A stretch of DNA of 64,000 nucleotides, taken from the sequence record PZ212788.1. One strand, written 5' to 3'. The notes beneath the pieces are model-generated. The model did no database searches and was not told where the DNA came from. It was given only the letters and a program-made list of their open reading frames with translations. The number at the start of each line of letters is the position of its first letter. Positions within the stretch are counted from its first letter, which is position 1. Of the stretch, positions 9,957 to 50,755 are shown piece after piece. The position numbers were made by a program, and so were the translations under genes. Source of the stretch: a phage.

Positions 9957-10381
9957 TGAGCACACACCCTCGTTTAGTGGATTGGCAAGAAAGATTGTGG
10001 AAAGTGTTTGACGAAGAGGCCACCATACCTTTTGAATGGGGATTCCACGATTGTTGCACCTTTGCAGCTAAGTGTGTTGATGCCCAATACGGAACAGATT
10101 TTCTTTCTAACTTTGAAGGAACGTATAAAACAGAGTTGGAAAGCAAGAGATGGTGCATGCTTCATTTCAAAACCACACATCTGCCCACTATTTTTGATTT
10201 CTTTATGACTCGACTGGACACTCCTAAACAGGTTCAGCGTGGTGATATTGTTATTTTCGAAGGCCTGAACGGGCTCACCGCTGGTGTGTTCTGGAACAAC
10301 CAGATTTGGGCGAAAGGGGATAAAGGGGTCTTTATGTTCGACATGAAAGATTCTATCGTTGTTGATGTCTGGAGGTATTAA
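9956..10381 (+). CDS. NlpC/P60-like tail assembly protein (lambda gpK C-terminal domain-like)
   Basis: FHDCCTF (catalytic Cys context) and downstream GDIVIFEG resemble NlpC/P60 motifs; start trimmed to ATG 9956 with GGGAGG RBS; TAATG coupling to J-like gene. Confidence 0.5.
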   Translation: MSTHPRLVDWQERLWKVFDEEATIPFEWGFHDCCTFAAKCVDAQYGTDFLSNFEGTYKTELESKRWCMLHFKTTHLPTIFDFFMTRLDTPKQVQRGDIVIFEGLNGLTAGVFWNNQIWAKGDKGVFMFDMKDSIVVDVWRY

Positions 10382-13300
10382 TGCCAATTGCAATGATTGA
10401 TAACATCGTTGCTTCTGCAAGATCTTCAAGTTATGACTGGAACGCATCCAAGGCAGCTCTGGCTGACAGCCTGAACACTGTTACCACCAGAACTCTGGAT
10501 AAGATTTTTGAGGGCAACAAATCTTACAGAAGTCAGCAAGATAGACAAAAGCTTCTCAGATCTTCTGCTGCACCTTGCTCTGTAGTGTATGGGAAGACAC
10601 GCACATCTGGATTACTTGCGTTTTTGGAGCAGGACAGGGACAGGACCCTCCATTGTGCTATTGTTCTTGCCAATCATCCCCTGGAAGGTATAGAAGATAT
10701 ACTCATCGACGGTAATCCTATTTCCTCGTATGGAGATTTGATATCGTGGGAGCTACATAACGACAGAAAAACATCTGATCCTTTCATGGGTACACACTGC
10801 CCGTCGTGGTCACCAGACATGATAGGTAGAGGGATCAGTTGGCTACGTGCCAGCTTCAGGTTTGACCCTAACAAGTTCCCTTTTGGGTTGCCAAACGTTA
10901 CACTCGTCAAGGTTGGTAAAAAATGCTATGATCCTCGTATCAGTAAAGAGGTGTATACCAATAACGCGGCCTTGGTGATTCTAGACTATTTAAGAACGTA
11001 CCTTAAATGTCCTGACGAAACCATCAACTGGGAGTCCTTCAAGGAGGCTGCTAACATATGCGATGAGGCGGTAAGAAACGCGGACGGAACTAGTGAGCGC
11101 CGTTACACCATTAATGGTGAGTTCGATATGGATGAGGCCCCAGCAAGTATTATGGCAGAAATGCTGAAAGCTTGTGGTGCAGATCTCAGCTATGTAGCTG
11201 GTAAGTATGGACTGCTGGTAGGTGCATATTATGGTCCGGCAACAATGACACTGAGTGAGGACTGTGTCTGTGGTGAGGTTAAGATCTATCCGGAAGCCTC
11301 GTTTGACAAAAGATCCAACACAATAACTGGCAGATTCACCAGTCCGACTAAAGGGTATTCTGAAACAGATTTTCCATCAGTATTTGTCCCAGAGTGGATA
11401 GAGAAGGATGGAGAAAGAAAGATAATCGATATAGACTACCGCTTTGTTACCAGTCCTTACCAAGCTCAGCGTGTTTCTGCAATCTTCTTAAGACGTGCTA
11501 GAGCTGGCAGGATTATTGAAGTCACCTGCAATATGCGAGGTTTTAAATTTAAGCCTGGTAGTTACGTTACAATGGACCTTCCAAGTATTGGTATAGTGGG
11601 CCAAGAAATGAGGGTTCTTGAGTGGGAGTTCACTAAAAAGGGTGGTGTTAAGGTAAAACTTCGCCAAGATGCTAAAGAGTGGAATGATGCCACAGGGCAA
11701 CTTCCTGATTCCGGCGATGTAGATATTCCGATATCCCCGTCCGGTGTAGCTCAACCGCAAAACTTCAGATACTCCGTTCTCCAAGCTGGGGAAGTAACTC
11801 ACGGTGTTTTGGCTTGGGACAACGTTGGAACTTACGCTCAAAATATTGTGCAGGTAAGAAAGAACGGAGAGATTGTTTGGACAGCACAGACAGTTGAGCA
11901 GTTTGTCCGAGTAGAAGGCTTGACCAAAGGGTCATACACAGCAACCGTGGTTGCAACATCTTATAAAGGTGGTGTATCTCCAGAAGCCTACTGCGAGTTC
12001 AACATTCAAGCACCTGAAGCTCCTGTTTCTGTAGAAGTTAAGCAGGGATACTTTGCTATCACCTTGATTCCGCATAGTAGGGATTTAGCAAGTGTTAGCA
12101 CCCAGTATGACTTTTGGACATCCGGTATGACAAGGTTGCCAGACACCAGTGATGCAACCGTTACTTCAAAAGCCACCCGTATGGGTGTTGGTTCAACTTG
12201 GACATCTGAAGGTCTGCAGAACGATAAGATTTATTATTGGTATATTAGAACCACAAACGCTTTTGGTAGTTCTCAGTTTGTAGAATGCGCTGCACGCTGC
12301 TACACCTCTATTGAGGATTTGATGCCTCAGATAGATGCTGAATTCAAAAAGACAGAAACTTATAAAGAGTTGATGAGTACTTTGGATTCCTCTATTGAAG
12401 AGGTTGAAAATCGTGTCACAGAACTTAACAGGTACATGGATGGTAGGGTAGATGAAGCGTTCCAGCAACTTGGGGACAGAATAGGTGCGGTAGTTACAGA
12501 AACAACTCAGAAGTTTGAAGATGTCAATGGTAACATTACAGCGCTGGATAGGAAACTTGTTGCTGCACAGAACAAATTCACCAACGATCTGAACACTGAA
12601 AGTGGCAGACTGGCATCTCTGATCGAGACAACCAATAAAGCAACTACTGATCTTCTGAACAAAAAGACAGAGGCTTTAGATGAGAAATTGGTTGCCGCCA
12701 AAGGTGAGCTGGTAGAGCAGATAGAGGGAGTTGAGAGCGGGTATTTAGCCGGAGATAAAACTCTGGATGGTAAGATCAATACTCAGAGAACAGAACTTGA
12801 CGCAAGCATCTTGAGCACTAACCAGGCAACTGTGGATCTTTTGAACAGGACATCTGAAACTCTGGATCAAAAGATCAGTCAGACAAACGCGACGGTATCT
12901 AAAAACTATACCACCCTGGATGGCAAGATAACCACCGCAAAAACTGACCTCAACACCTTGATTGCCAATACCAACAAGGCCACCACTGACTTGTTGAATC
13001 AGAAAACATCTGCACTGTCAGAGCAGATAACTTCTGCACGTGGGGAGATTTCTACCAACAAGCAGGCGATTGATGCTTTGGATGGAAAACTGACTTCCAC
13101 AAAAACAGCGCTGGATGCTACAATTTCCGATACCAACAAAGCTACTGTGGACCTTATCAACGGCACAGCGTCAGCTATTCGTCAAGAACTTGCTGTTGCT
13201 AAGCAGGAGATCATTGATGATGTTGGGGATGTGTCCGAAATCAGGGCTGCAGTAGCTACAACATCTAAGGCTGTAACCGACTTAGAGGGTAAAGTAAATG

Positions 13301-44117: not shown

Positions 44118-45487
44118 TGGAAAAAGGGCAGTATGATGTAGGCACAGATGCTGCCCTCGTTGCAATCATGAGCGGTGAGAATGTCTTCGTTTCAGGACCT
44201 GCAGGTTGTGGGAAGACGTATCTCATCAACATGATCCAGTCGATGTATGGAGACTCTTGCATAACGGTTGCCCCGACAGGGGTAGCCGCTTTAAACGTTA
44301 ATGGAGCAACAGCACACCGAACCTTCGATCTTGCAGCAGGTGTGAGCATGGAGTCAGACTGGACCGCAATAAGGGCAAAAACAGCAAAGCCTTTGAAAAG
44401 CAAGGCATTTACCATCCTAATTATCGATGAAATCTCTATGATCCGTGCTGATAAGTTTATAGAGATGGATAGGAAACTCCGCTTCCTTCGAAAAAATGAC
44501 AAACCTTTCGGAGGCATACAGGTCATATTGTTTGGCGATTTTTACCAGGCACCTCCTGTTGTCTCTTCTATGGAGAAGGAAGCCTACTTCAACTTCTACC
44601 ATACGGACCTGTGTTGCTATACCGAATCTTGGAAAGAGCTTGACCTCCACAACATAGCCCTAATAGATCAGTTCCGACAGGAGTCTATTCGATTTGCTAC
44701 AATGCTCAACTGTGTTCGTGAGGGTCGTCGCATAAAAGAGGTTGTAGCAGAACTTAATGCTCGCTGTTACAAAGGAGGTGTACCAACAGACGCTCTCACA
44801 ATTTGCGCCACCAACAAACAAGCAGAGGAAGTGAACAGAAGGTTCTATGATGCCATCAACGCCCCAGAGAAGGTATACACTGGTGAAATGAAGGGTAAGT
44901 TTCCCTCCACCCTGCCAGTTGAGCAGGAGATGAAGTTGAAAATTGGCATGAAAGTTATGATAACCGCCAACGATGTTGACCCGACGCACAAAGTACCTTA
45001 TTATGTTAACGGAACACGTGCTACAATTGTTAAATTTAAGAACAAGGCGGTGGTGGTAGAGCTTGAAGATGGAACACAGGTTGACATAGAGCAGAGGTTG
45101 TGGGAGAATAACGAGTATAAGCCATCCCAGAGATACAACATTGCAGAAAGGAAGATGGAGAAGTTTATAGAGAGGGTAGTGATTGGGTCATACAAGCAAC
45201 TTCCTCTGAAATCTGGGTACGCTGTAACATCTCATAAAAGTCAAGGACTTACACTAGATTGTTACAACCTAGACCTTGGAAAGAACGGAGCTTTCTCTCC
45301 TGGGATGACGTATGTCGCTTTGAGTAGAGTTAAGACAATACAAGGAATAAACTTGTTGCGTCCACTAAGAGAGGTTGACATTATTGTTGACCCGCGAGTC
45401 GTAGAGTTTTACAATACAACATTCCCTGACTTAGACAAAATTGTCAGGAAAGATTTTGAAACCAGAGCAGAAGAGGGGGACGTATGA
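44117..45487 (+). CDS. Pif1/RecD-like (Dda-type) DNA helicase
   Basis: Walker A SGPAGCGKTY; IIDEISM; ILFGDFYQAPPV; VTSHKSQGLTLD; YVALSRVK. Confidence 0.75.
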   Translation: MEKGQYDVGTDAALVAIMSGENVFVSGPAGCGKTYLINMIQSMYGDSCITVAPTGVAALNVNGATAHRTFDLAAGVSMESDWTAIRAKTAKPLKSKAFTILIIDEISMIRADKFIEMDRKLRFLRKNDKPFGGIQVILFGDFYQAPPVVSSMEKEAYFNFYHTDLCCYTESWKELDLHNIALIDQFRQESIRFATMLNCVREGRRIKEVVAELNARCYKGGVPTDALTICATNKQAEEVNRRFYDAINAPEKVYTGEMKGKFPSTLPVEQEMKLKIGMKVMITANDVDPTHKVPYYVNGTRATIVKFKNKAVVVELEDGTQVDIEQRLWENNEYKPSQRYNIAERKMEKFIERVVIGSYKQLPLKSGYAVTSHKSQGLTLDCYNLDLGKNGAFSPGMTYVALSRVKTIQGINLLRPLREVDIIVDPRVVEFYNTTFPDLDKIVRKDFETRAEEGDV

Positions 45488-45825
45488 GTTTGTGGAGAAA
45501 TATCGTTAACTACGTGTGCGGCAATCCAACTCCTGAAGAGAAGGATGTTGTGATTCACGATTTTACTAAAAGATCTCGTGAAAAAGATCTACTGCTAACA
45601 AAGGTGACTGATAAAGATCCTGCAGTAGGGGACTGGGCAGGTTTTGCGTTTACATCGGACAAATACACCTTTAACAAAGGTGACTACCTTGTTGTGGATT
45701 TTAACGAAGACATTGAGGGTGCTGAACCTTACTATCAAACCCTTATTGTTGCAGGGTGTGTTGATCTCTCTGCAGGCATGCACAGTTTGATTCTTTTTGA
45801 GCTTGACTCTGAAGACCTTGAGTAG
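45484..45825 (+). CDS. hypothetical protein
   Basis: 113 aa, coupled to helicase gene. Confidence 0.4.
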   Translation: MSLWRNIVNYVCGNPTPEEKDVVIHDFTKRSREKDLLLTKVTDKDPAVGDWAGFAFTSDKYTFNKGDYLVVDFNEDIEGAEPYYQTLIVAGCVDLSAGMHSLILFELDSEDLE

Positions 45826-45885
45826 TAAGATGTGAGTATAAAGGGGAGGCACTCCTCCCCACAAAAACTAAGGAAGCACTAAACG

Positions 45886-46188
45886 ATGAAACGTTATAAA
45901 CCATACACTTTTGAAATCGATTTCGAACTTGACGATATGTTTACTGTGGAAGCTCAGGCAGTTGTCCAGTTGCCAGACTCGGAGTGCCGTGACTCTGATG
46001 TTGACTATTACGGGTTTAGACAAATTACCGATGTGCGTGTTTACCACAACGGTGAAGAGGTGGACTTCCACCAACTGCCAAACGATATGCGCCACTCAAT
46101 TTACAAACGTGCAGCCCGTGAACTAGAGTCCTATCTGGATGCAGCGACGACAGCAGCTGCATTTGCTGAAGAAGTGGGAGGTTTCTGA
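45886..46188 (+). CDS. hypothetical protein
   Basis: 100 aa ORF with RBS. Confidence 0.4.
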   Translation: MKRYKPYTFEIDFELDDMFTVEAQAVVQLPDSECRDSDVDYYGFRQITDVRVYHNGEEVDFHQLPNDMRHSIYKRAARELESYLDAATTAAAFAEEVGGF

Positions 46189-46583
46189 TGATTACAGGTG
46201 TGAAGATTATCCAATACCACTTAACCAAATTGGAAGATGCTGAAAAAGAGCTTGCAGAAGTTCTGAATAGTGGATATACTTTGCTATCATGCGCCTGCTC
46301 AGACACATACGCTGTGTGGACACTTATCCGGAAGGAAGAGCCTGCGGGGATCTTGGTGCCAAACCCTAAGATCATTAGTGAGGTGGATGACTACGCTCAG
46401 GACGGCCTGCCAGAAGGCTGGGAAGTATGGGAAGGTGGTGAAAACCCTGCACCAGGTAAGTGGGTAAAATACAAACTGCGTAGTGGCGCACAGTACGCTG
46501 ACTATTCTGATGACCTGGACTGGAGTCATTCTTCACCAGAATCATCTGCAAGTTCCTATGATATCATAGCTTTTAAGGAATAA
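46188..46583 (+). CDS. hypothetical protein
   Basis: 131 aa ORF, coupled. Confidence 0.4.
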   Translation: MITGVKIIQYHLTKLEDAEKELAEVLNSGYTLLSCACSDTYAVWTLIRKEEPAGILVPNPKIISEVDDYAQDGLPEGWEVWEGGENPAPGKWVKYKLRSGAQYADYSDDLDWSHSSPESSASSYDIIAFKE

Positions 46584-46595
46584 GGAGAAGGTGGT

Positions 46596-47078
46596 ATGTC
46601 AGATTTTATGTGGAAAGTTGGTTATTCCTCCCCTGAAATGTGTAAGGCCTGTTTTGTGAAAATAGGTCGCGAGGATATCGACAAAGTGATTCTTAAGTTT
46701 CGTGATGTGGCTGTAATCGGCAACCGAGTGCTTAAGCACTTAAAGAATCTGAAGCTCACCAAAAAGAAGTTCTTTGGACTTTTCGAAGAGAAGGTTGATG
46801 CTTGGACCCATTGCATTCAGGAAGCTAAATCTCACTACAGTGCTATCATTACCCCAGAACGGGTAGCCAAGATGGAAGGATTCATCAACAGCACAGAGTT
46901 TGAGTGCCTGAAAGCTGCACTTGATAGTTATCCGAAATGCCTCAAGCACTTGGACAAGTATGTAGAAAAGGATGGGGAAATGTACCTAACCCTGGACGCA
47001 TATTATGAGATGCAAGAAATTTTAAATTTAGATTTGACATTGGTATCCACCGAGTATACAATAGGTATCCAGGTTTAA
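46596..47078 (+). CDS. hypothetical protein
   Basis: 160 aa ORF with AAGGAGAAGG RBS. Confidence 0.4.
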   Translation: MSDFMWKVGYSSPEMCKACFVKIGREDIDKVILKFRDVAVIGNRVLKHLKNLKLTKKKFFGLFEEKVDAWTHCIQEAKSHYSAIITPERVAKMEGFINSTEFECLKAALDSYPKCLKHLDKYVEKDGEMYLTLDAYYEMQEILNLDLTLVSTEYTIGIQV

Positions 47079-47084
47079 CACTAG

Positions 47085-47112
47085 GCCCTGCCCGAAAGGG
47101 TGGGGCTTTTTG
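47085..47112 (+). terminator. rho-independent terminator (GAAA-loop family)
   Basis: gccctgccc-gaaa-gggtggggc followed by tttttg; identical stem-loop recurs at 58590. Confidence 0.7.
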
Positions 47113-47129
47113 CATTAGGAGACAGCAAA

Positions 47130-47894
47130 TTGAAATTCATCTACAAAGAACACTACCACAAAGGTGTTGTGTGGAGTCTATTTGACGGGTCTGGTGGTGC
47201 AGTTATTGACTGGGCAAAAGCTGGGTACCTGTGCCTGTGCTTTAATGCAGAAGGTGCTGACCACGGCAGTTATGCAGAGGTGATAACCGATCATCCTAAC
47301 ATTCACTATGTGGATTATTGGATTGACCCATGGTTCCCTCAGGAAACTTTTTGCATGTATCCAGCTCCAGACTTTATTCTTGCATTTCCTCCGTGCACGC
47401 ATTTAGCGGTATCAGGTGCTGCACATTTTAAGAAAAAGCTGGCTAAGGATCCTTTGATCCAAATTAATGCTGTAAAGGATGCTCGGGTTGCGGAAGAGTT
47501 GGGAGAGATTTACGATTGCCCGTGGCATGTAGAGAATCCTGTAGGGGTTATGTCCACACTGTGGCGAAAACCTGATTACCGTTTTCATCCTTCGGATTAT
47601 GGTGGGTATTTACCGGAGGATGATGTAAACCCCTGGTTTCCTGAATTTATAGCTCCACGTGATGCCTATCCAAAAATAACTTGCGGCTGGATAGGCAATG
47701 GATTTATAATCCCGGCCACAAAACCTGTCCCGCAAATAGTTGACGCGGTTAGCGGGTATTCCATGCAACACGCCAAGCTGGGTGGAAAGAGTGCAAGAAC
47801 GAAGATGATCCGAAGCCTCACGCCACGTGGCTGGGCAAAAGCCGTATTCTTAGCAAACGAGCCTGTAGTAAGGAGCAGAATTAATGGGAAGTAA
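47130..47894 (+). CDS. C5-cytosine methyltransferase-like enzyme with variant catalytic motif
   Basis: Motif I SLFDGSGG, motif IV-like FPPCTH (PC-T instead of PCQ), motif VI-like HVENPVG; track ORF start lies inside the terminator, so start placed at TTG 47130 after AGGAGA. Confidence 0.5.
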   Translation: MKFIYKEHYHKGVVWSLFDGSGGAVIDWAKAGYLCLCFNAEGADHGSYAEVITDHPNIHYVDYWIDPWFPQETFCMYPAPDFILAFPPCTHLAVSGAAHFKKKLAKDPLIQINAVKDARVAEELGEIYDCPWHVENPVGVMSTLWRKPDYRFHPSDYGGYLPEDDVNPWFPEFIAPRDAYPKITCGWIGNGFIIPATKPVPQIVDAVSGYSMQHAKLGGKSARTKMIRSLTPRGWAKAVFLANEPVVRSRINGK

Positions 47895-49962
47895 ATTTAT
47901 GGCATCTGCATACAACCGTTTCGGTGAGCCAAACCCGAAAGCAACTAAGTATAAAAGTGGGGGAAGTGTGAAACGAGACTATCGTGATGAAAAAGAGGTT
48001 GAAACTGTAGAGACTGTTTTAGAAAATACTAAAATTGTCCCTGTCCCACAACAAAATATCGGTCTGATGGCTGCACAATATTTTGGTGTGCGATCAGCAT
48101 TGTCACAAGAAGACGGTGTGACAGTCACTGCAACATATTTCCCATATTACGACCGCTACGGAAATCTGTCCGGTTTCAAAAAGCGTGACTGGACTATTCC
48201 TAAAGAACAAAGGGGCCACTTCTCCGTTGTTGGCATCGTAAAGGCCAACTCCCAGATGTTTGGTCAAAAGCTGTGTGCATCTTCCAACAACCGTAAGCAG
48301 ATTAACGTTTGTGAGGGAGAAGGTGATGTTATTGCAGCATGGCAGGCTGCATATCAGATACAAGTAAAAGGGATTCTCACCAACGCTAAAGCCCCGGCAA
48401 AGGTGAAGCAGTGGGCTAAAGAGGTCCAGGACGGGATCGACGCAGTTATCAACGGTGGTGATCTGGCAGGAAAACCCTGCCTGCCTTTTGTTGGAATTAA
48501 CTGTGGATGTGCAAACGCAGTAGATACTTTTGCAAACAATGAGAAGTTTATCCGTAGCTATGGAACAGTTGTGCTGGCAATGGATAACGATGCAGCTAAC
48601 GAGGTAGAGAAGCAAAAACACGTCATTAAAGGTGTTGAGGCCACGCACAATATCGCAGCATTTTTGATGGCTGATAACGTTTACCACGTAGAATACCCTG
48701 GTGAAGTAAATGACCCTGACGGGGTAAAAGATATCCGTGACATGCTGAAGGCTAAAAAGCTGGAAGATATTGTCAACATGTTCCGGCATCCTGTTAAATA
48801 TGTGCCTGATGCTGTGTCGGACTTAGAAGACTTCTCTATCGAGTCTTTGCGGAAAAAGACTTCCAACGGGGTAGATATCAGCGCAGAGTTCCCAAAACTG
48901 CAAAAAATGCTAAAAGGCTTGCACAAAGGGACACTCGTAATGCTTACAGGTCCATCAGGCGGTGGTAAAACAACCGTGGCTAAAAAACTGGAACACTGTA
49001 TTGCAAGATATCTAATGGACCCGACATGCCCGAAGGCTGATGACTATGAAGAGGATGATCGTCTATGTATGATCCATCTTGAGGAGGACCCAGAGGAAGC
49101 AATTAACTCCTTGTATGCAAACCAGTTAGGGTTTGATGTTAAAGAGTTTGTTGAAGATCCTAGCCAGTTTTTAACTGATCAAGAACACGCAGAGATTCAC
49201 CAATCATGGGCAAAAGCTGGAAAAATCAAAGTGTTCAAACATTTCGGATCTATTCCGGTGGACGAGTTGATTACTAAGCTTAAGCAAATGGTTTGCCTGT
49301 ACCATTGTCGTTATATTGTGCTGGATCACCTGTCCATGGTAATTTCAGGGCTTAATGTTAAAGATGAGCGAAAAGAACTGGACATGGCTATGACCCAACT
49401 GGCTGCGTTTTGTAAGCAGTTTAACGTGTTTATCTTGGTGATCGCTCACCTCAAACGTACAGAGATTGTGCCTCCTAAGGACAAGGATGGTAACCCATTA
49501 CCTTTCTGGTATCCTGTGCGAAAAGAGAATTTGCGAGGATCGGCTGGGCTTGAACAGTTGAGTTGGGTAGTCATAGGTGTCGAGGCCGAAGAAATGGTGG
49601 ATCGTTCTCGTGGGCGTGTCCGTCTGGTAGGTCTTAAAAACCGTCCAGCAAAAACTTTAGGTATTGCTGACACTTTAGTTATGGATCCGCATACAGGTAA
49701 GTTCCATGATGCCAGTAATTGGTACTGGGACAAAGAAATGCAGATGTTTACAGACGGAGAAGGTGGGGAGGTTGTTTGGAGACCTCAGGCCATGTTTGAG
49801 GACCAAGAGCATGCAGTTGTAGAAACACCTATGGGCAAGGTTGTAGCCGATAAGGTTGTAACTCCTACTATTAAGCCTGTTGACACGCAGGAAGACCTCC
49901 AGTACGATGATCCATCCTCTGACCCGGTCCCTGGTTTTGAGGATGATGAAACGCCTTTTTAA
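47884..49962 (+). CDS. DNA primase-helicase (TOPRIM primase plus DnaB/T7 gp4-like helicase)
   Basis: TOPRIM motifs NVCEGEGDVIAA and LAMDNDAANE; Walker A MLTGPSGGGKTT; acidic C-terminus ending DDETPF. Confidence 0.8.
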   Translation: MGSKFMASAYNRFGEPNPKATKYKSGGSVKRDYRDEKEVETVETVLENTKIVPVPQQNIGLMAAQYFGVRSALSQEDGVTVTATYFPYYDRYGNLSGFKKRDWTIPKEQRGHFSVVGIVKANSQMFGQKLCASSNNRKQINVCEGEGDVIAAWQAAYQIQVKGILTNAKAPAKVKQWAKEVQDGIDAVINGGDLAGKPCLPFVGINCGCANAVDTFANNEKFIRSYGTVVLAMDNDAANEVEKQKHVIKGVEATHNIAAFLMADNVYHVEYPGEVNDPDGVKDIRDMLKAKKLEDIVNMFRHPVKYVPDAVSDLEDFSIESLRKKTSNGVDISAEFPKLQKMLKGLHKGTLVMLTGPSGGGKTTVAKKLEHCIARYLMDPTCPKADDYEEDDRLCMIHLEEDPEEAINSLYANQLGFDVKEFVEDPSQFLTDQEHAEIHQSWAKAGKIKVFKHFGSIPVDELITKLKQMVCLYHCRYIVLDHLSMVISGLNVKDERKELDMAMTQLAAFCKQFNVFILVIAHLKRTEIVPPKDKDGNPLPFWYPVRKENLRGSAGLEQLSWVVIGVEAEEMVDRSRGRVRLVGLKNRPAKTLGIADTLVMDPHTGKFHDASNWYWDKEMQMFTDGEGGEVVWRPQAMFEDQEHAVVETPMGKVVADKVVTPTIKPVDTQEDLQYDDPSSDPVPGFEDDETPF

Positions 49963-50020
49963 TGTTTAACAAAGAGTGGGAGGGGTAGTACAACCGCCTC
50001 CCCTTTAAGGAGAACACTTT

Positions 50021-50755
50021 ATGAACGAGTTCAGAGATCACTGTGTAGCCAATCACTTGTGGTCAGAAATATTGGAGTATGACGGTCAAAATCTTTTTTG
50101 GAAGATAGACATTCTGGCAGGTAGCGGTGTAGGATATGTTAAAACTTCAGCAGGCTCCAGAGCCGACAAGGGGCAAGATGCTGATGGCAGGCCTGTGGTT
50201 AGCCTAGGAAAGCATTGCACTAAAGGTGCCCACGTCATAATTTGGGAAATGTTTAACGGTCCTGTACCGGAAGGGTATGAGGTTGACCACATCAAGGAGA
50301 TAAGGGAAACAGGTGGTGTGGCTGATAACAGTATTCAAAATTTGCAACTACTCGAGCCCACAGATAACAAAAAGAAAAGTTGCAAGATACCTCGTAGCAA
50401 CAACAAATCTGGCAGGGTCGGGGTGCACTATTCTGAAGAAAGAGAGGCATGGGTAGCTCAAGGCACAGACTCTGTAGGGGAAAGGGTCTGGCTAGGCCAG
50501 TACAGAACTTTCGAAGAGGCAGAGTGGGCAAGAAAGTTCTTCGAAGATAATGGTTTTTCGCACAAGAGTGGAAGAGCCGTGCAGTATAATAACACCAGCG
50601 GTTGCTCAGGGGTGAATTGGGATAAAACCCATGAGAGATGGGTAGCCAGAATTTATGTAGATGGTAAAAGGAAATGCCTTGGGTATTTCAAGAATAGGGA
50701 CGATGCAATAGCTGCAAGAAAGAATGCTGAGAAGAAACAGGAGGAGACAGTATGA
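50021..50755 (+). CDS. HNH homing endonuclease with tandem AP2-like DNA-binding domains
   Basis: HNH core around GYEVDHIKEI; two AP2-like repeats (SGRVGVHYSEEREAWVAQ..., SGCSGVNWDKTHERWVARIYVDGKRKCLGYF). Confidence 0.65.
   Translation: MNEFRDHCVANHLWSEILEYDGQNLFWKIDILAGSGVGYVKTSAGSRADKGQDADGRPVVSLGKHCTKGAHVIIWEMFNGPVPEGYEVDHIKEIRETGGVADNSIQNLQLLEPTDNKKKSCKIPRSNNKSGRVGVHYSEEREAWVAQGTDSVGERVWLGQYRTFEEAEWARKFFEDNGFSHKSGRAVQYNNTSGCSGVNWDKTHERWVARIYVDGKRKCLGYFKNRDDAIAARKNAEKKQEETV

What the first reader, a model, noticed from the sequence alone, without database searches (positions are those of the whole stretch)
47130..47894. Short C5-methyltransferase-like enzyme with PC-T in place of PCQ
Motif I (SLFDGSGG) and an ENV-like motif (HVENPVG) with a Pro-Cys dipeptide (FPPCTH) indicate the C5-pyrimidine methyltransferase fold, but the catalytic PCQ is PCT and the protein is only about 255 aa. 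It may be a compact Dcm-like anti-restriction methylase or an enzyme with altered chemistry on DNA pyrimidines. The track ORF start includes the upstream terminator hairpin; a TTG after AGGAGA is the likely start.
Basis: partly seen in the sequence, partly recalled or inferred. Interest (0 to 1): 0.6.

Follow-up and report, generated by a model that had tools for sequence, protein, structure and literature searches.

The report
Compact phage cytosine-C5 DNA methyltransferase
This gene encodes a small, stand-alone DNA cytosine-C5 methyltransferase found in over a thousand phage genomes and already annotated in near-identical rV5-like coliphages, so its unusual 'PCT' motif is the family's normal form and not a sign of new chemistry.

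Summary
Window 47130-47894 (+) encodes a 254-aa protein with SLFDGSGG, FPPCTH and HVENPVG, starting at a TTG behind AGGAGA and a terminator-like hairpin.

The window is an rV5-like Escherichia myovirus (Vequintavirus, 99% identical to phages SophiaRose and AlexBoehm). In AlexBoehm the same coordinates are already annotated 'Dcm-like C5 cytosine methyltransferase'.

The protein belongs to PHROG 757 (E = 8e-87). This is a large family of 210-260-aa phage and prophage proteins: 1,504 phage records, and 2,046 clusters at 50% identity.

- PPC-T is the family norm: Cys89 and Glu135 are in 81/81 diverse members, Thr90 in 73/81.
- A 54%-identical homologue from a KarlJaspers-like phage was reported to put 5-methylcytosine on retron Ec86 msDNA. 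Its mutated residues C82 and E128 correspond to C89 and E135 here.

The 'altered chemistry' idea is not supported. No cmoA homologue turned up in this phage group, and no conserved basic residue was identified at the candidate cofactor position.

Still open: the target sequence (no similarity to E. coli Dcm beyond one short motif), the missing canonical motif X, and the biological role, since Vequintavirinae remain very sensitive to restriction.

Verdict: already known, low interest.

The parts
47034..47062 (+). Sigma-70-like promoter candidate (TTGACA-17 nt-TACAAT) at the end of the upstream ORF
   Evidence: 11 of 12 consensus matches, the best site in 45400-48200. Function not shown. Related Certrevirus phages are reported to have sigma-70-like early promoters in the helicase/methylase/polymerase region (PMC7344957).
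47083..47108 (+). Terminator-like hairpin (11-bp stem, GAAA loop, followed by a T-rich tail) between the upstream ORF and the methyltransferase gene
   Evidence: terminator scan; fold of -22.8 kcal/mol, z = -2.2. The alternative GTG start at 47100 lies inside its 3' arm.
47117..47122 (+). Shine-Dalgarno sequence AGGAGA, 7 nt upstream of the TTG start
   Evidence: Read directly from the sequence.
47130..47894 (+). Coding sequence of the 254-aa compact orphan DNA cytosine-C5 methyltransferase (TTG start, TAA stop at 47892-47894)
47175..47198 (+). Motif I, SLFDGSGG (residues 16-23): SAM-binding loop after strand beta-1
   Evidence: Aligned to motif I of DNMT3B/3A and M.HaeIII/M.HhaI. L17 is in 77/81 members, F/Y18 in 74/81, D19 in 62/81, T/S21 in 76/81, G22 in 61/81.
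47385..47402 (+). Motif IV, FPPCTH (residues 86-91), with the predicted catalytic nucleophile Cys89 (47394-47396)
   Evidence: C89 is in 81/81 members, P87 in 75/81, T90 in 73/81. Aligns with PC of DNMT3A/B (PCN), M.HhaI and Dcm (PCQ). Corresponds to C82 of the K42 enzyme, one of the four residues mutated together in the inactive quadruple mutant of the preprint.
47526..47546 (+). Motif VI, HVENPVG (residues 133-139), with Glu135 (47532-47534)
   Evidence: E135 is in 81/81 members, N136 in 77/81, P137 in 80/81. Aligns with ENV of M.HhaI, Dcm and DNMT3A. Corresponds to E128 of the K42 enzyme.
47667..47690 (+). Motif VIII-like strand, YPKITCGW (residues 180-187)
   Evidence: Y180 and W187 are in 81/81 members, K182 in 80/81, T184 in 79/81. 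hhalign places it on the DNMT3A R790-A-R792-Y-F-W segment (low-confidence region). K182 and I183 correspond to K175 and K176 mutated in the K42 enzyme.
47811..47882 (+). Motif IX-like RSLTPRG (residues 228-234), running straight into the long C-terminal helix (233-251). No separate motif X can be recognised.
   Evidence: The best BLASTP segment against E. coli Dcm is RSLTPRGWAKAV against RRLTPRECARLM. The same register is found against M.HhaI. R228 is in 79/81 members, P232 in 77/81, G234 in 79/81, A238 in 76/81. The helix is from the AlphaFold secondary structure.
47884..49962 (+). Downstream DNA primase/helicase gene, whose ATG overlaps the last 11 nt of the methyltransferase gene (replication module context)
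   Evidence: Pfam DnaB_C and AAA_25. Annotated as DNA primase/helicase in MZ501048.

Best explanation
The gene encodes a stand-alone (orphan) SAM-dependent DNA cytosine-C5 methyltransferase of the compact phage family PHROG 757. It sits in the replication module of an rV5-like coliphage.

Expression (inferred): the gene lies behind a terminator-like hairpin and possibly a sigma-70-type promoter. It uses a strong Shine-Dalgarno sequence with a weak TTG start, and it overlaps the primase/helicase gene that follows.

Chemistry (inferred by homology to M.HhaI and DNMT3):
- The N-terminal Rossmann half binds SAM, using motif I SLFDGSGG, Asn39 and Asp66.
- The target cytosine is flipped out of the helix.
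- The Cys89 thiolate (motif IV, PPC) attacks C6, while Glu135 (motif VI, ENP) protonates N3.
- The methyl group is transferred to C5, and beta-elimination releases the enzyme.

DNA recognition (inferred): a very short and highly conserved recognition region (about residues 188-227) and the RSLTPR motif contact the DNA. The long C-terminal helix probably packs back where motif X sits in larger enzymes.

What is shown, and for which protein: 5-methylcytosine formation on DNA was shown for a 54%-identical homologue, not for this protein. That activity was lost when the residues equivalent to C89, E135, K182 and I183 were mutated together.

Biological role (inferred): post-replicative methylation of phage DNA at one short motif gives at most narrow protection against particular nucleases. 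The cost is that the phage becomes visible to methylation-sensing defences such as retron Ec86/Eco1 or type IV restriction.
For: - Family membership: phrog_757 'DNA methyltransferase' at E = 7.7e-87.
- Near-identical genes are annotated as cytosine methyltransferase in SophiaRose, AlexBoehm, FFH2 and others.
- 20 of 29 close relatives hit Pfam PF00145 at E <= 1, and of the relatives checked individually three score above its gathering threshold of 22 bits: 24.7, 28.5 and 25.4 bits.
- The AlphaFold model has pLDDT 88.6 and pTM 0.89.
- hhalign of the family profile against the DNMT3A catalytic domain gives E = 1.5e-4, with motifs I, IV and VI in register.
- Cys89 and Glu135 are invariant in 81 members down to 32% identity.
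- Experiment on a homologue: the 711-bp dcm gene of KarlJaspers-like phage K42 raised 5mC on Ec86 msDNA by LC-MS, and the C82A/E128A/K175A/K176A mutant did not (preprint 10.1101/2023.08.16.553469).
- KarlJaspers bas06_0055 is 54% identical to this protein over 235 aa, and those residues map to C89, E135, K182 and I183.
- Orphan context: neighbours are replication genes with no nuclease partner. An E. coli chromosomal homologue sits in a lambdoid prophage nin region next to Dam, NinG and RusA.
Against: - No experiment exists on this protein or on any rV5-like phage DNA.
- Its own sequence does not reach any Pfam or NCBIfam threshold.
- Canonical motif X (GN[AS]V) cannot be found by sequence.
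- The motif II acidic residue (Asp in 76/81 members) is Asn39 here, although the active K42 enzyme has the same Asn.
- The second Lys mutated in K42 is Ile183 here.
- The protective role is doubtful. Vequintavirinae are reported to be exceptionally sensitive to type I, II and III RM systems (PMC8594841).
- The homologue's evidence is a preprint. It measured total 5mC on msDNA in a dcm+ host and assumed the CCWGG site without mapping it.
Confidence: 0.85

Rival explanations
1. It transfers a different group: a CmoX-like DNA cytosine C5-carboxymethyltransferase that uses carboxy-SAM, or another non-methyl chemistry. This is what the first reader suspected from PCT.
For: - CmoX enzymes carry a Pro-Pro-Cys motif (SPPC), and this family has FPPC.
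- The E. coli host makes carboxy-SAM through CmoA (PMC12783734).
- A basic residue (K237) lies in the C-terminal helix, and R233 is common in the family.
Against: - A PPCT homologue gave 5mC in cmoA+ E. coli.
- CmoX was reported to accept only carboxy-SAM, and it is defined by SPPC plus an Arg replacing M.HhaI Asn304.
- Here position 237 is variable (R16, K15, I10, E10, Q9, L8) and R233 is present in only 62/81 members.
- CmoX usually travels with a phage cmoA. tblastn of CmoA found 86 phage records, and the organism groups named in the output (82 of the 86) include no Escherichia phage, whereas this methyltransferase family is in 1,504 records dominated by Escherichia and Klebsiella phages.
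- No ligase or cmoA is annotated in the matching 64 kb of AlexBoehm.
Confidence: 0.04
2. It is an RNA (tRNA) cytosine-C5 methyltransferase of the DNMT2 type, not a DNA enzyme.
Against: - DNA enzymes score higher: DNMT3B 13.4, DNMT3A 11.9, M.HhaI 10.8.
- The homologue methylated the DNA part of msDNA.
- The gene sits in DNA replication modules, next to or fused with helicases.
Confidence: 0.02
3. The enzyme is catalytically active, but restriction evasion is not its main role. Instead the mark might serve phage DNA replication, packaging or gene regulation, or counter a defence that is not classical restriction.
For: - Vequintavirinae are exceptionally RM-sensitive despite carrying the gene, and no link was found between methyltransferase genes and RM resistance in Drexlerviridae (PMC8594841).
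- The gene is conserved in 113 of 121 related records.
- It is tightly embedded in the replication module and overlaps the primase/helicase gene.
- The domain is fused to large helicase proteins in some uncultured phages.
Against: There is no direct evidence for any alternative role. Only six RM systems were tested in BASEL, so protection against an untested enzyme with a matching site remains possible. Orphan phage methyltransferases are classically protective (general knowledge).
Confidence: 0.25
4. The rV5-clade copy is a decayed, inactive remnant.
For: It has subclade substitutions: Asn39 for the usual Asp, His91 for Asp, and Ile183 for Lys/Arg. Its start codon is a weak TTG.
Against: - Every invariant and nearly invariant family residue is retained.
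- The ORF is intact and 95-100% conserved in more than 100 phages.
- Asn39 is shared with the active K42 enzyme.
- His91 occurs in 9/81 members.
Confidence: 0.04

Closest known systems
Dcm of KarlJaspers-like phage K42 (= bas06_0055 of phage KarlJaspers, Drexlerviridae), the trigger of retron Ec86/Eco1; PHROG 757
   Same: Same family. 54% identity over 235 aa. Same size class (236 against 254 aa). Same PPCT, ENP, YxKxTxxW and RSLTPRG motifs. Same Asn at the motif II position. Both are orphan genes in a phage replication region next to a helicase gene.
   Different: This protein has a 7-residue longer N-terminus, His91 for Asp, and Ile183 for Lys176. It comes from a 135-kb myovirus, not a 51-kb siphovirus. 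No experimental data exist for it, and it is not known whether rV5-like phages trigger Ec86.
Catalytic domains of mammalian DNMT3A/DNMT3B
   Different: Only 13-15% identity. DNMT3 has clear motifs IX and X and a TRD loop for CpG, and it works as an oligomer with regulatory domains. This protein is 30 residues shorter and ends right after the RSLTPR helix.
Canonical bacterial C5-methyltransferases (Pfam PF00145): M.HhaI and E. coli Dcm / M.EcoRII
   Different: - No significant sequence similarity (BLASTP E = 1.2; hhalign E about 0.2).
- PCT instead of PCQ.
- No GN(A/S)V motif X.
- 254 aa against 327 and 472 aa, with no large target-recognition domain.
- No vsr partner.
'Dcm-like' is therefore a label and does not show orthology or CCWGG specificity.
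SpCmoX, DNA cytosine C5-carboxymethyltransferase of Synechococcus phage S-B43 (PDB 8yf3)
   Different: CmoX has SPPC plus a conserved Arg at the M.HhaI Asn304 position, uses carboxy-SAM only, and is usually linked to phage cmoA and an amide ligase. None of these was found here.

Membership tests
DNA cytosine-C5 methyltransferase superfamily (PF00145-type) | Class I methyltransferase fold, with C5-methyltransferases as the closest structures | tested here: met
DNA cytosine-C5 methyltransferase superfamily (PF00145-type) | Motif I SAM-binding loop (F-x-G-x-G type) | tested here: met
   SLFDGSGG at residues 16-23, aligned to motif I of DNMT3A/B, M.HaeIII and M.HhaI.
DNA cytosine-C5 methyltransferase superfamily (PF00145-type) | Motif IV Pro-Cys with the catalytic cysteine | tested here: met
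   FPPCTH. C89 is invariant in 81/81 members and aligns to the PC of DNMT3, M.HhaI and Dcm. The residue after Cys is Thr, not Gln.
DNA cytosine-C5 methyltransferase superfamily (PF00145-type) | Motif VI Glu-Asn-Val with the protonating glutamate | tested here: met
   VENPV. E135 is in 81/81 members and N136 in 77/81, aligned with ENV.
DNA cytosine-C5 methyltransferase superfamily (PF00145-type) | Score above the Pfam PF00145 gathering threshold | tested here: not met
   No PF00145 hit for this protein even at E <= 10. Relatives P0054, P0069 and P0072 pass (24.7-28.5 bits against 22), but only over profile positions 4-94. 20/29 relatives hit at E <= 1.
DNA cytosine-C5 methyltransferase superfamily (PF00145-type) | Motifs IX (R-x-L-T-x-R-E) and X (G-N-[AS]-V) after the recognition domain | tested here: inconclusive
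   RSLTPRG matches the first half of motif IX of Dcm and M.HhaI. No GN(A/S)V follows, and the protein ends 20 residues later. Whether helix 233-251 replaces the motif X helix could not be checked, because the tools do not give model coordinates.
DNA cytosine-C5 methyltransferase superfamily (PF00145-type) | SAM-dependent formation of 5-methylcytosine in DNA | not testable with these tools
   Reported for a 54%-identical homologue only (preprint 10.1101/2023.08.16.553469).
PHROG 757 compact phage 'Dcm-like' methyltransferases | Full-length match to the family profile | tested here: met
   E = 7.7e-87, residues 2-251 on profile positions 5-226 of 247. A profile search found 2,046 cluster representatives, and nearly all of the 150 listed are under about 300 aa (most 210-260; some are shorter fragments and a few are longer).
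PHROG 757 compact phage 'Dcm-like' methyltransferases | Family signature residues (PPCT, ENP, Y-x-K-x-T-x-x-W, R-S-x-T-P-R-G) | tested here: met
   All are present in this protein.
E. coli Dcm / M.EcoRII orthologues (CCWGG) | Significant sequence similarity that includes the target-recognition domain | tested here: not met
   Best BLASTP E = 1.2, and only a 12-residue motif IX segment. hhalign E = 0.23.
E. coli Dcm / M.EcoRII orthologues (CCWGG) | Methylation of the inner cytosine of CCWGG | not testable with these tools
   This was assumed, not mapped, for the K42 homologue. CCWGG is only mildly under-represented in the window, 107 observed against 158 expected, which says nothing either way.
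CmoX DNA carboxymethyltransferases | SPPC motif plus a conserved Arg at the M.HhaI Asn304 position | tested here: inconclusive
   FPPC, not SPPC (F86 in 74/81). Candidate positions are not conserved as basic residues: position 237 is variable and R233 is in 62/81. The exact Asn304 equivalent cannot be fixed without a superposition.
CmoX DNA carboxymethyltransferases | Linkage to a phage-encoded carboxy-SAM synthase (CmoA) and/or an amide ligase | tested here: not met
   No Escherichia phage appears among the organism groups named for 82 of the 86 phage records with a CmoA homologue. None is annotated in the corresponding AlexBoehm region.

The most novel reading that the evidence does not exclude
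This roughly 230-250-aa family may be a minimal C5-methyltransferase architecture. Its recognition region would be only about 40 residues, and motifs IX and X would be fused into one terminal helix.

Its true target may not be the CCWGG of host Dcm, as its label suggests. It could be a different, possibly very short, motif, or a particular substrate form such as hairpin or single-stranded DNA, which is what the retron msDNA result hints at.

If so, the 'Dcm-like' annotation carried by phages in more than a thousand records that encode this family would be misleading about specificity, and the enzyme would be a useful minimal scaffold.
Probability: 0.15. Interest if true: 0.45.

Novelty: already known. 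Interest (0 to 1): 0.13.

Why it matters
As it stands this is a routine annotation. It confirms that rV5-like coliphages carry the compact orphan cytosine methyltransferase found in T1-like, Dhillonvirus, Webervirus and many other enterobacterial phages and prophages.

The practical points are modest:
- Such phages probably carry 5mC marks. These can affect nanopore basecalling, methylation-sensitive cloning, and sensitivity to type IV restriction or methylation-sensing retrons (Ec86/Eco1).
- The 'Dcm-like' label should not be read as CCWGG specificity, because the protein shares no recognition domain with Dcm.
- The family is a very small natural C5-methyltransferase whose target motif and C-terminal architecture have not been mapped.

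Tried and rejected
- Direct Pfam, NCBIfam and PADLOC scans of the protein gave nothing useful.
- Sequence and profile searches of the PDB gave only insignificant hits. In the single-sequence and close-family profile searches they pointed to motifs I-IV of DNMT3B and M.HaeIII; the broader profile hit only unrelated dehydrogenases.
- hhalign of the family profile against M.HhaI and against E. coli Dcm was not significant (E about 0.2). Motif registers from those alignments are used only as suggestions.
- A homologue search seeded with M.HhaI, meant to build a canonical profile, returned only proteins more than 70% identical to the query and added little.
- I tried to decide whether the C-terminal helix is motif IX or motif X, and which residue equals M.HhaI Asn304. 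The DNMT3A-based and HhaI/Dcm-based alignments disagree, and no model coordinates are available, so this is unresolved.
- Oligonucleotide statistics were tried as a clue to the target site. CCWGG has an observed/expected ratio of 0.68, which is uninformative.
- Literature searches for a mapped motif, or for restriction-digest data on rV5-like DNA, found none.
- An RNA methyltransferase, a carboxymethyltransferase and a dead remnant were each considered and rejected (see the rival explanations).

Full report
**What is there**

Window 47130-47894 (+) is an intact ORF. From TTG 47130 it encodes 254 aa, with these motifs:
- SLFDGSGG: residues 16-23.
- FPPCTH: residues 86-91, Cys89 at nt 47394-47396.
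- HVENPVG: residues 133-139, Glu135 at nt 47532-47534.

The longer reading from GTG 47100 starts inside the 3' arm of an 11-bp GC-rich hairpin with a GAAA loop and a T-rich tail (47083-47108).

Four things support the TTG start:
- It is preceded by AGGAGA at a 7-nt spacing.
- The 80%-identical homologue P0002 begins at the same place.
- The 254-aa product is an exact database protein (P0001).
- GenBank MZ501048 annotates exactly this interval as bas56_0071.

The stop codon overlaps the ATG of the DNA primase/helicase gene that follows (47884-49962).

**Where the window comes from**

Bases 46000-50000 are 99.3% identical to Escherichia phages SophiaRose and AlexBoehm, and 95-99% identical to about 90 further rV5-like phages (Vequintavirus).

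The gene lies in the replication module: rIIA/B, helicase, four small unknown ORFs, this gene, primase/helicase, then DNA polymerase. In those records it is already labelled 'Dcm-like C5 cytosine methyltransferase', 'putative DNA cytosine methyltransferase', 'putative site specific DNA methylase' or 'DNA methyltransferase'.

**Family**

The protein itself hits no Pfam or NCBIfam model. It matches PHROG 757 'DNA methyltransferase' over its full length at E = 7.7e-87.

The family is large:
- tblastn finds it in 1,504 phage records, mainly Escherichia, Klebsiella and Salmonella phages of many genera.
- A word-indexed search finds 3,546 homologues.
- An exhaustive profile search finds 2,046 representatives of 50%-identity clusters. 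Among the 150 best that are listed, most full-length members are 210-260 aa.

An E. coli chromosomal copy lies in a lambdoid prophage nin region next to Dam, NinG and RusA. That is the usual setting for an orphan phage methylase. No nuclease partner is visible in the window.

**Is it a C5-methyltransferase?**

By sequence the link is weak but real:
- 20 of 29 close relatives hit PF00145, and three exceed its gathering score, always over motifs I-IV.
- The family profile aligns to the DNMT3A catalytic domain at E = 1.5e-4, with motifs I, IV and VI in register.
- Comparisons with M.HhaI and E. coli Dcm are not significant, although PC and ENV line up.

By structure the link is clear:
- The AlphaFold model is confident (pLDDT 88.6, pTM 0.89).
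- Foldseek gives DNMT3A/B at about 1e-5.

In an 81-member alignment reaching down to 32% identity, Cys89 and Glu135 are invariant. Pro87, Thr90, Asn136, Pro137, Lys182, Thr184, Arg228 and Gly234 are nearly so.

**The PCT point**

Thr follows Pro-Cys in 73 of 81 diverse members, and in most of the 270 family sequences fetched. PCT is therefore the family's signature and not a lesion. PCQ is also not universal among active enzymes: DNMT3A/B have PCN-D-L, close to this family's PCT-D-L.

**Experimental anchor from the literature**

A preprint on retron Ec86 (10.1101/2023.08.16.553469) reports four results:
- Escape mutants of a KarlJaspers-like phage (K42) disrupt a 711-bp 'Dcm-like' gene.
- Expressing that gene is toxic only when Ec86 is present.
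- Expressing it raises 5-methylcytosine on msDNA, measured by LC-MS.
- The quadruple mutant C82A/E128A/K175A/K176A is inactive.

KarlJaspers bas06_0055 is exactly 711 bp and 54% identical to the window protein over 235 residues. With the one-residue offset of my translation, the mutated residues map to C89, E135, K182 and I183 here. Later papers cite this as established (PMC12640716).

So ordinary methyl transfer to C5 of DNA cytosine has been shown for the family, though not for this protein.

**Alternative chemistry**

The recently described phage carboxymethyltransferase CmoX is the second-best structural hit, and like this family it has Pro-Pro-Cys. CmoX is defined by three features (PMC12783734):
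- an SPPC motif,
- an Arg replacing M.HhaI Asn304,
- linkage to a phage cmoA gene.

None of these is found here:
- The motif is FPPC.
- The basic residue K237 sits at a variable position, and R233 is present in only 62/81 members.
- tblastn with E. coli CmoA finds 86 phage records; the organism groups named in the output (82 of them) include no Escherichia phage.
- The AlexBoehm region matching the window contains no cmoA or ligase.

I put this rival at about 4%. An RNA (DNMT2-like) role is less likely still, because DNA enzymes score higher and the homologue acted on DNA.

**What remains unsettled**

1. Specificity.
   - The protein shares nothing with E. coli Dcm beyond a 12-residue R-x-L-T-P-R segment, so 'Dcm-like' is only a label.
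   - The preprint assumed CCWGG without mapping it.
   - Its assays used dcm+ MG1655, yet the vector control had little 5mC on msDNA. This suggests the phage enzyme differs from host Dcm in site, substrate form or efficiency.
   - The recognition region is highly conserved across the family. By inference, members may therefore share one target.
2. Architecture.
   - No GN(A/S)V motif X can be found.
   - RSLTPRG runs directly into a 19-residue terminal helix.
   - C5-methyltransferases lack an N-terminal helix before beta-1 and fill that position with the motif X helix. I therefore infer that the terminal helix does that job here.
   - The DNMT3A-based and HhaI-based alignments disagree in this region, and I could not superpose coordinates.
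3. Role.
   - BASEL phenotyping found Vequintavirinae 'exceptionally susceptible' to RM systems.
   - It found no pattern linking methyltransferase genes to RM resistance in Drexlerviridae (PMC8594841).
   - Any protection must therefore be narrow, and the mark can be a liability, since it triggers Ec86.

**Verdict**

The finding is real and its core reading is right: this is a compact orphan C5-cytosine DNA methyltransferase. It is already annotated in near-identical genomes and belongs to a family with published activity. The PCT motif does not indicate new chemistry.

Novelty is 'already known' and interest is low. The only moderately interesting loose ends are the unmapped target motif and the minimal, motif X-less architecture.

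Noticed in passing
window 47034-47108 (+): A near-consensus sigma-70 promoter (TTGACA-17-TACAAT, 11/12) ends only 20 nt before the terminator-like hairpin. Transcripts from it would therefore begin about 13 nt upstream of a hairpin with a T-rich tail, directly ahead of the methyltransferase RBS. This could be a chance match, a 5' stabilising hairpin or an attenuator-like arrangement.
   Followed up: partly
window 50021-50755 (+), compared with L003 (MZ501048) 10023-13291: A 244-aa HNH_3 + AP2 homing endonuclease ORF sits between the primase/helicase and DNA polymerase genes and has no counterpart in phage AlexBoehm. AlexBoehm instead has an endonuclease-bearing insertion inside its polymerase gene, which the window lacks. 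This is mobile-endonuclease turnover around the polymerase gene.
   Followed up: partly
whole window (1-64000): Several GC-rich 6-bp palindromes are strongly avoided relative to a Markov expectation: TGGCCA 0 against 7.7, CGATCG 0 against 6.7, GGCGCC 0 against 5.0, YGGCCR 2 against 17, RCCGGY 3 against 15, GRCGYC 3 against 16. GATC (0.87) and CCWGG (0.68) are only mildly depleted. This looks like restriction-site avoidance, not protection by modification.
   Followed up: no
BFVD entries A0A6J5SE15 (1397 aa) and A0A6J5NPY6 (1126 aa); proteins P0243, P0255, P0270: The compact methyltransferase domain also occurs as part of much larger proteins, some annotated as helicase/UvrB N-terminal (longer hits). 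As a free gene it lies next to helicase or primase/helicase genes in several unrelated phage groups. This hints at a functional link with replication helicases.
   Followed up: no
protein residue 39 (window 47244-47246); alignments A1 and A2: The motif II position is Asp in 76 of 81 diverse family members. It is Asn in the rV5-like and T1-like subclade, including the experimentally active K42/KarlJaspers enzyme. This is a subclade-wide change at a residue that normally binds the SAM ribose.
   Followed up: partly
literature: preprint 10.1101/2023.08.16.553469, in relation to L002:40087-40797: The msDNA methylation assays were done in dcm+ E. coli MG1655, yet vector controls showed low 5mC, and Ec86 is not self-activated there. 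The natural Ec86 host (BL21) is, from general knowledge, dcm-negative. The phage enzyme's site or substrate preference may therefore differ from host Dcm, and the CCWGG assignment is untested.
   Followed up: no
window 45484-47078 (+): The four small ORFs directly upstream of the methyltransferase (113, 100, 131 and 160 aa) have no Pfam match and are 'hypothetical' in all annotated relatives.
   Followed up: partly
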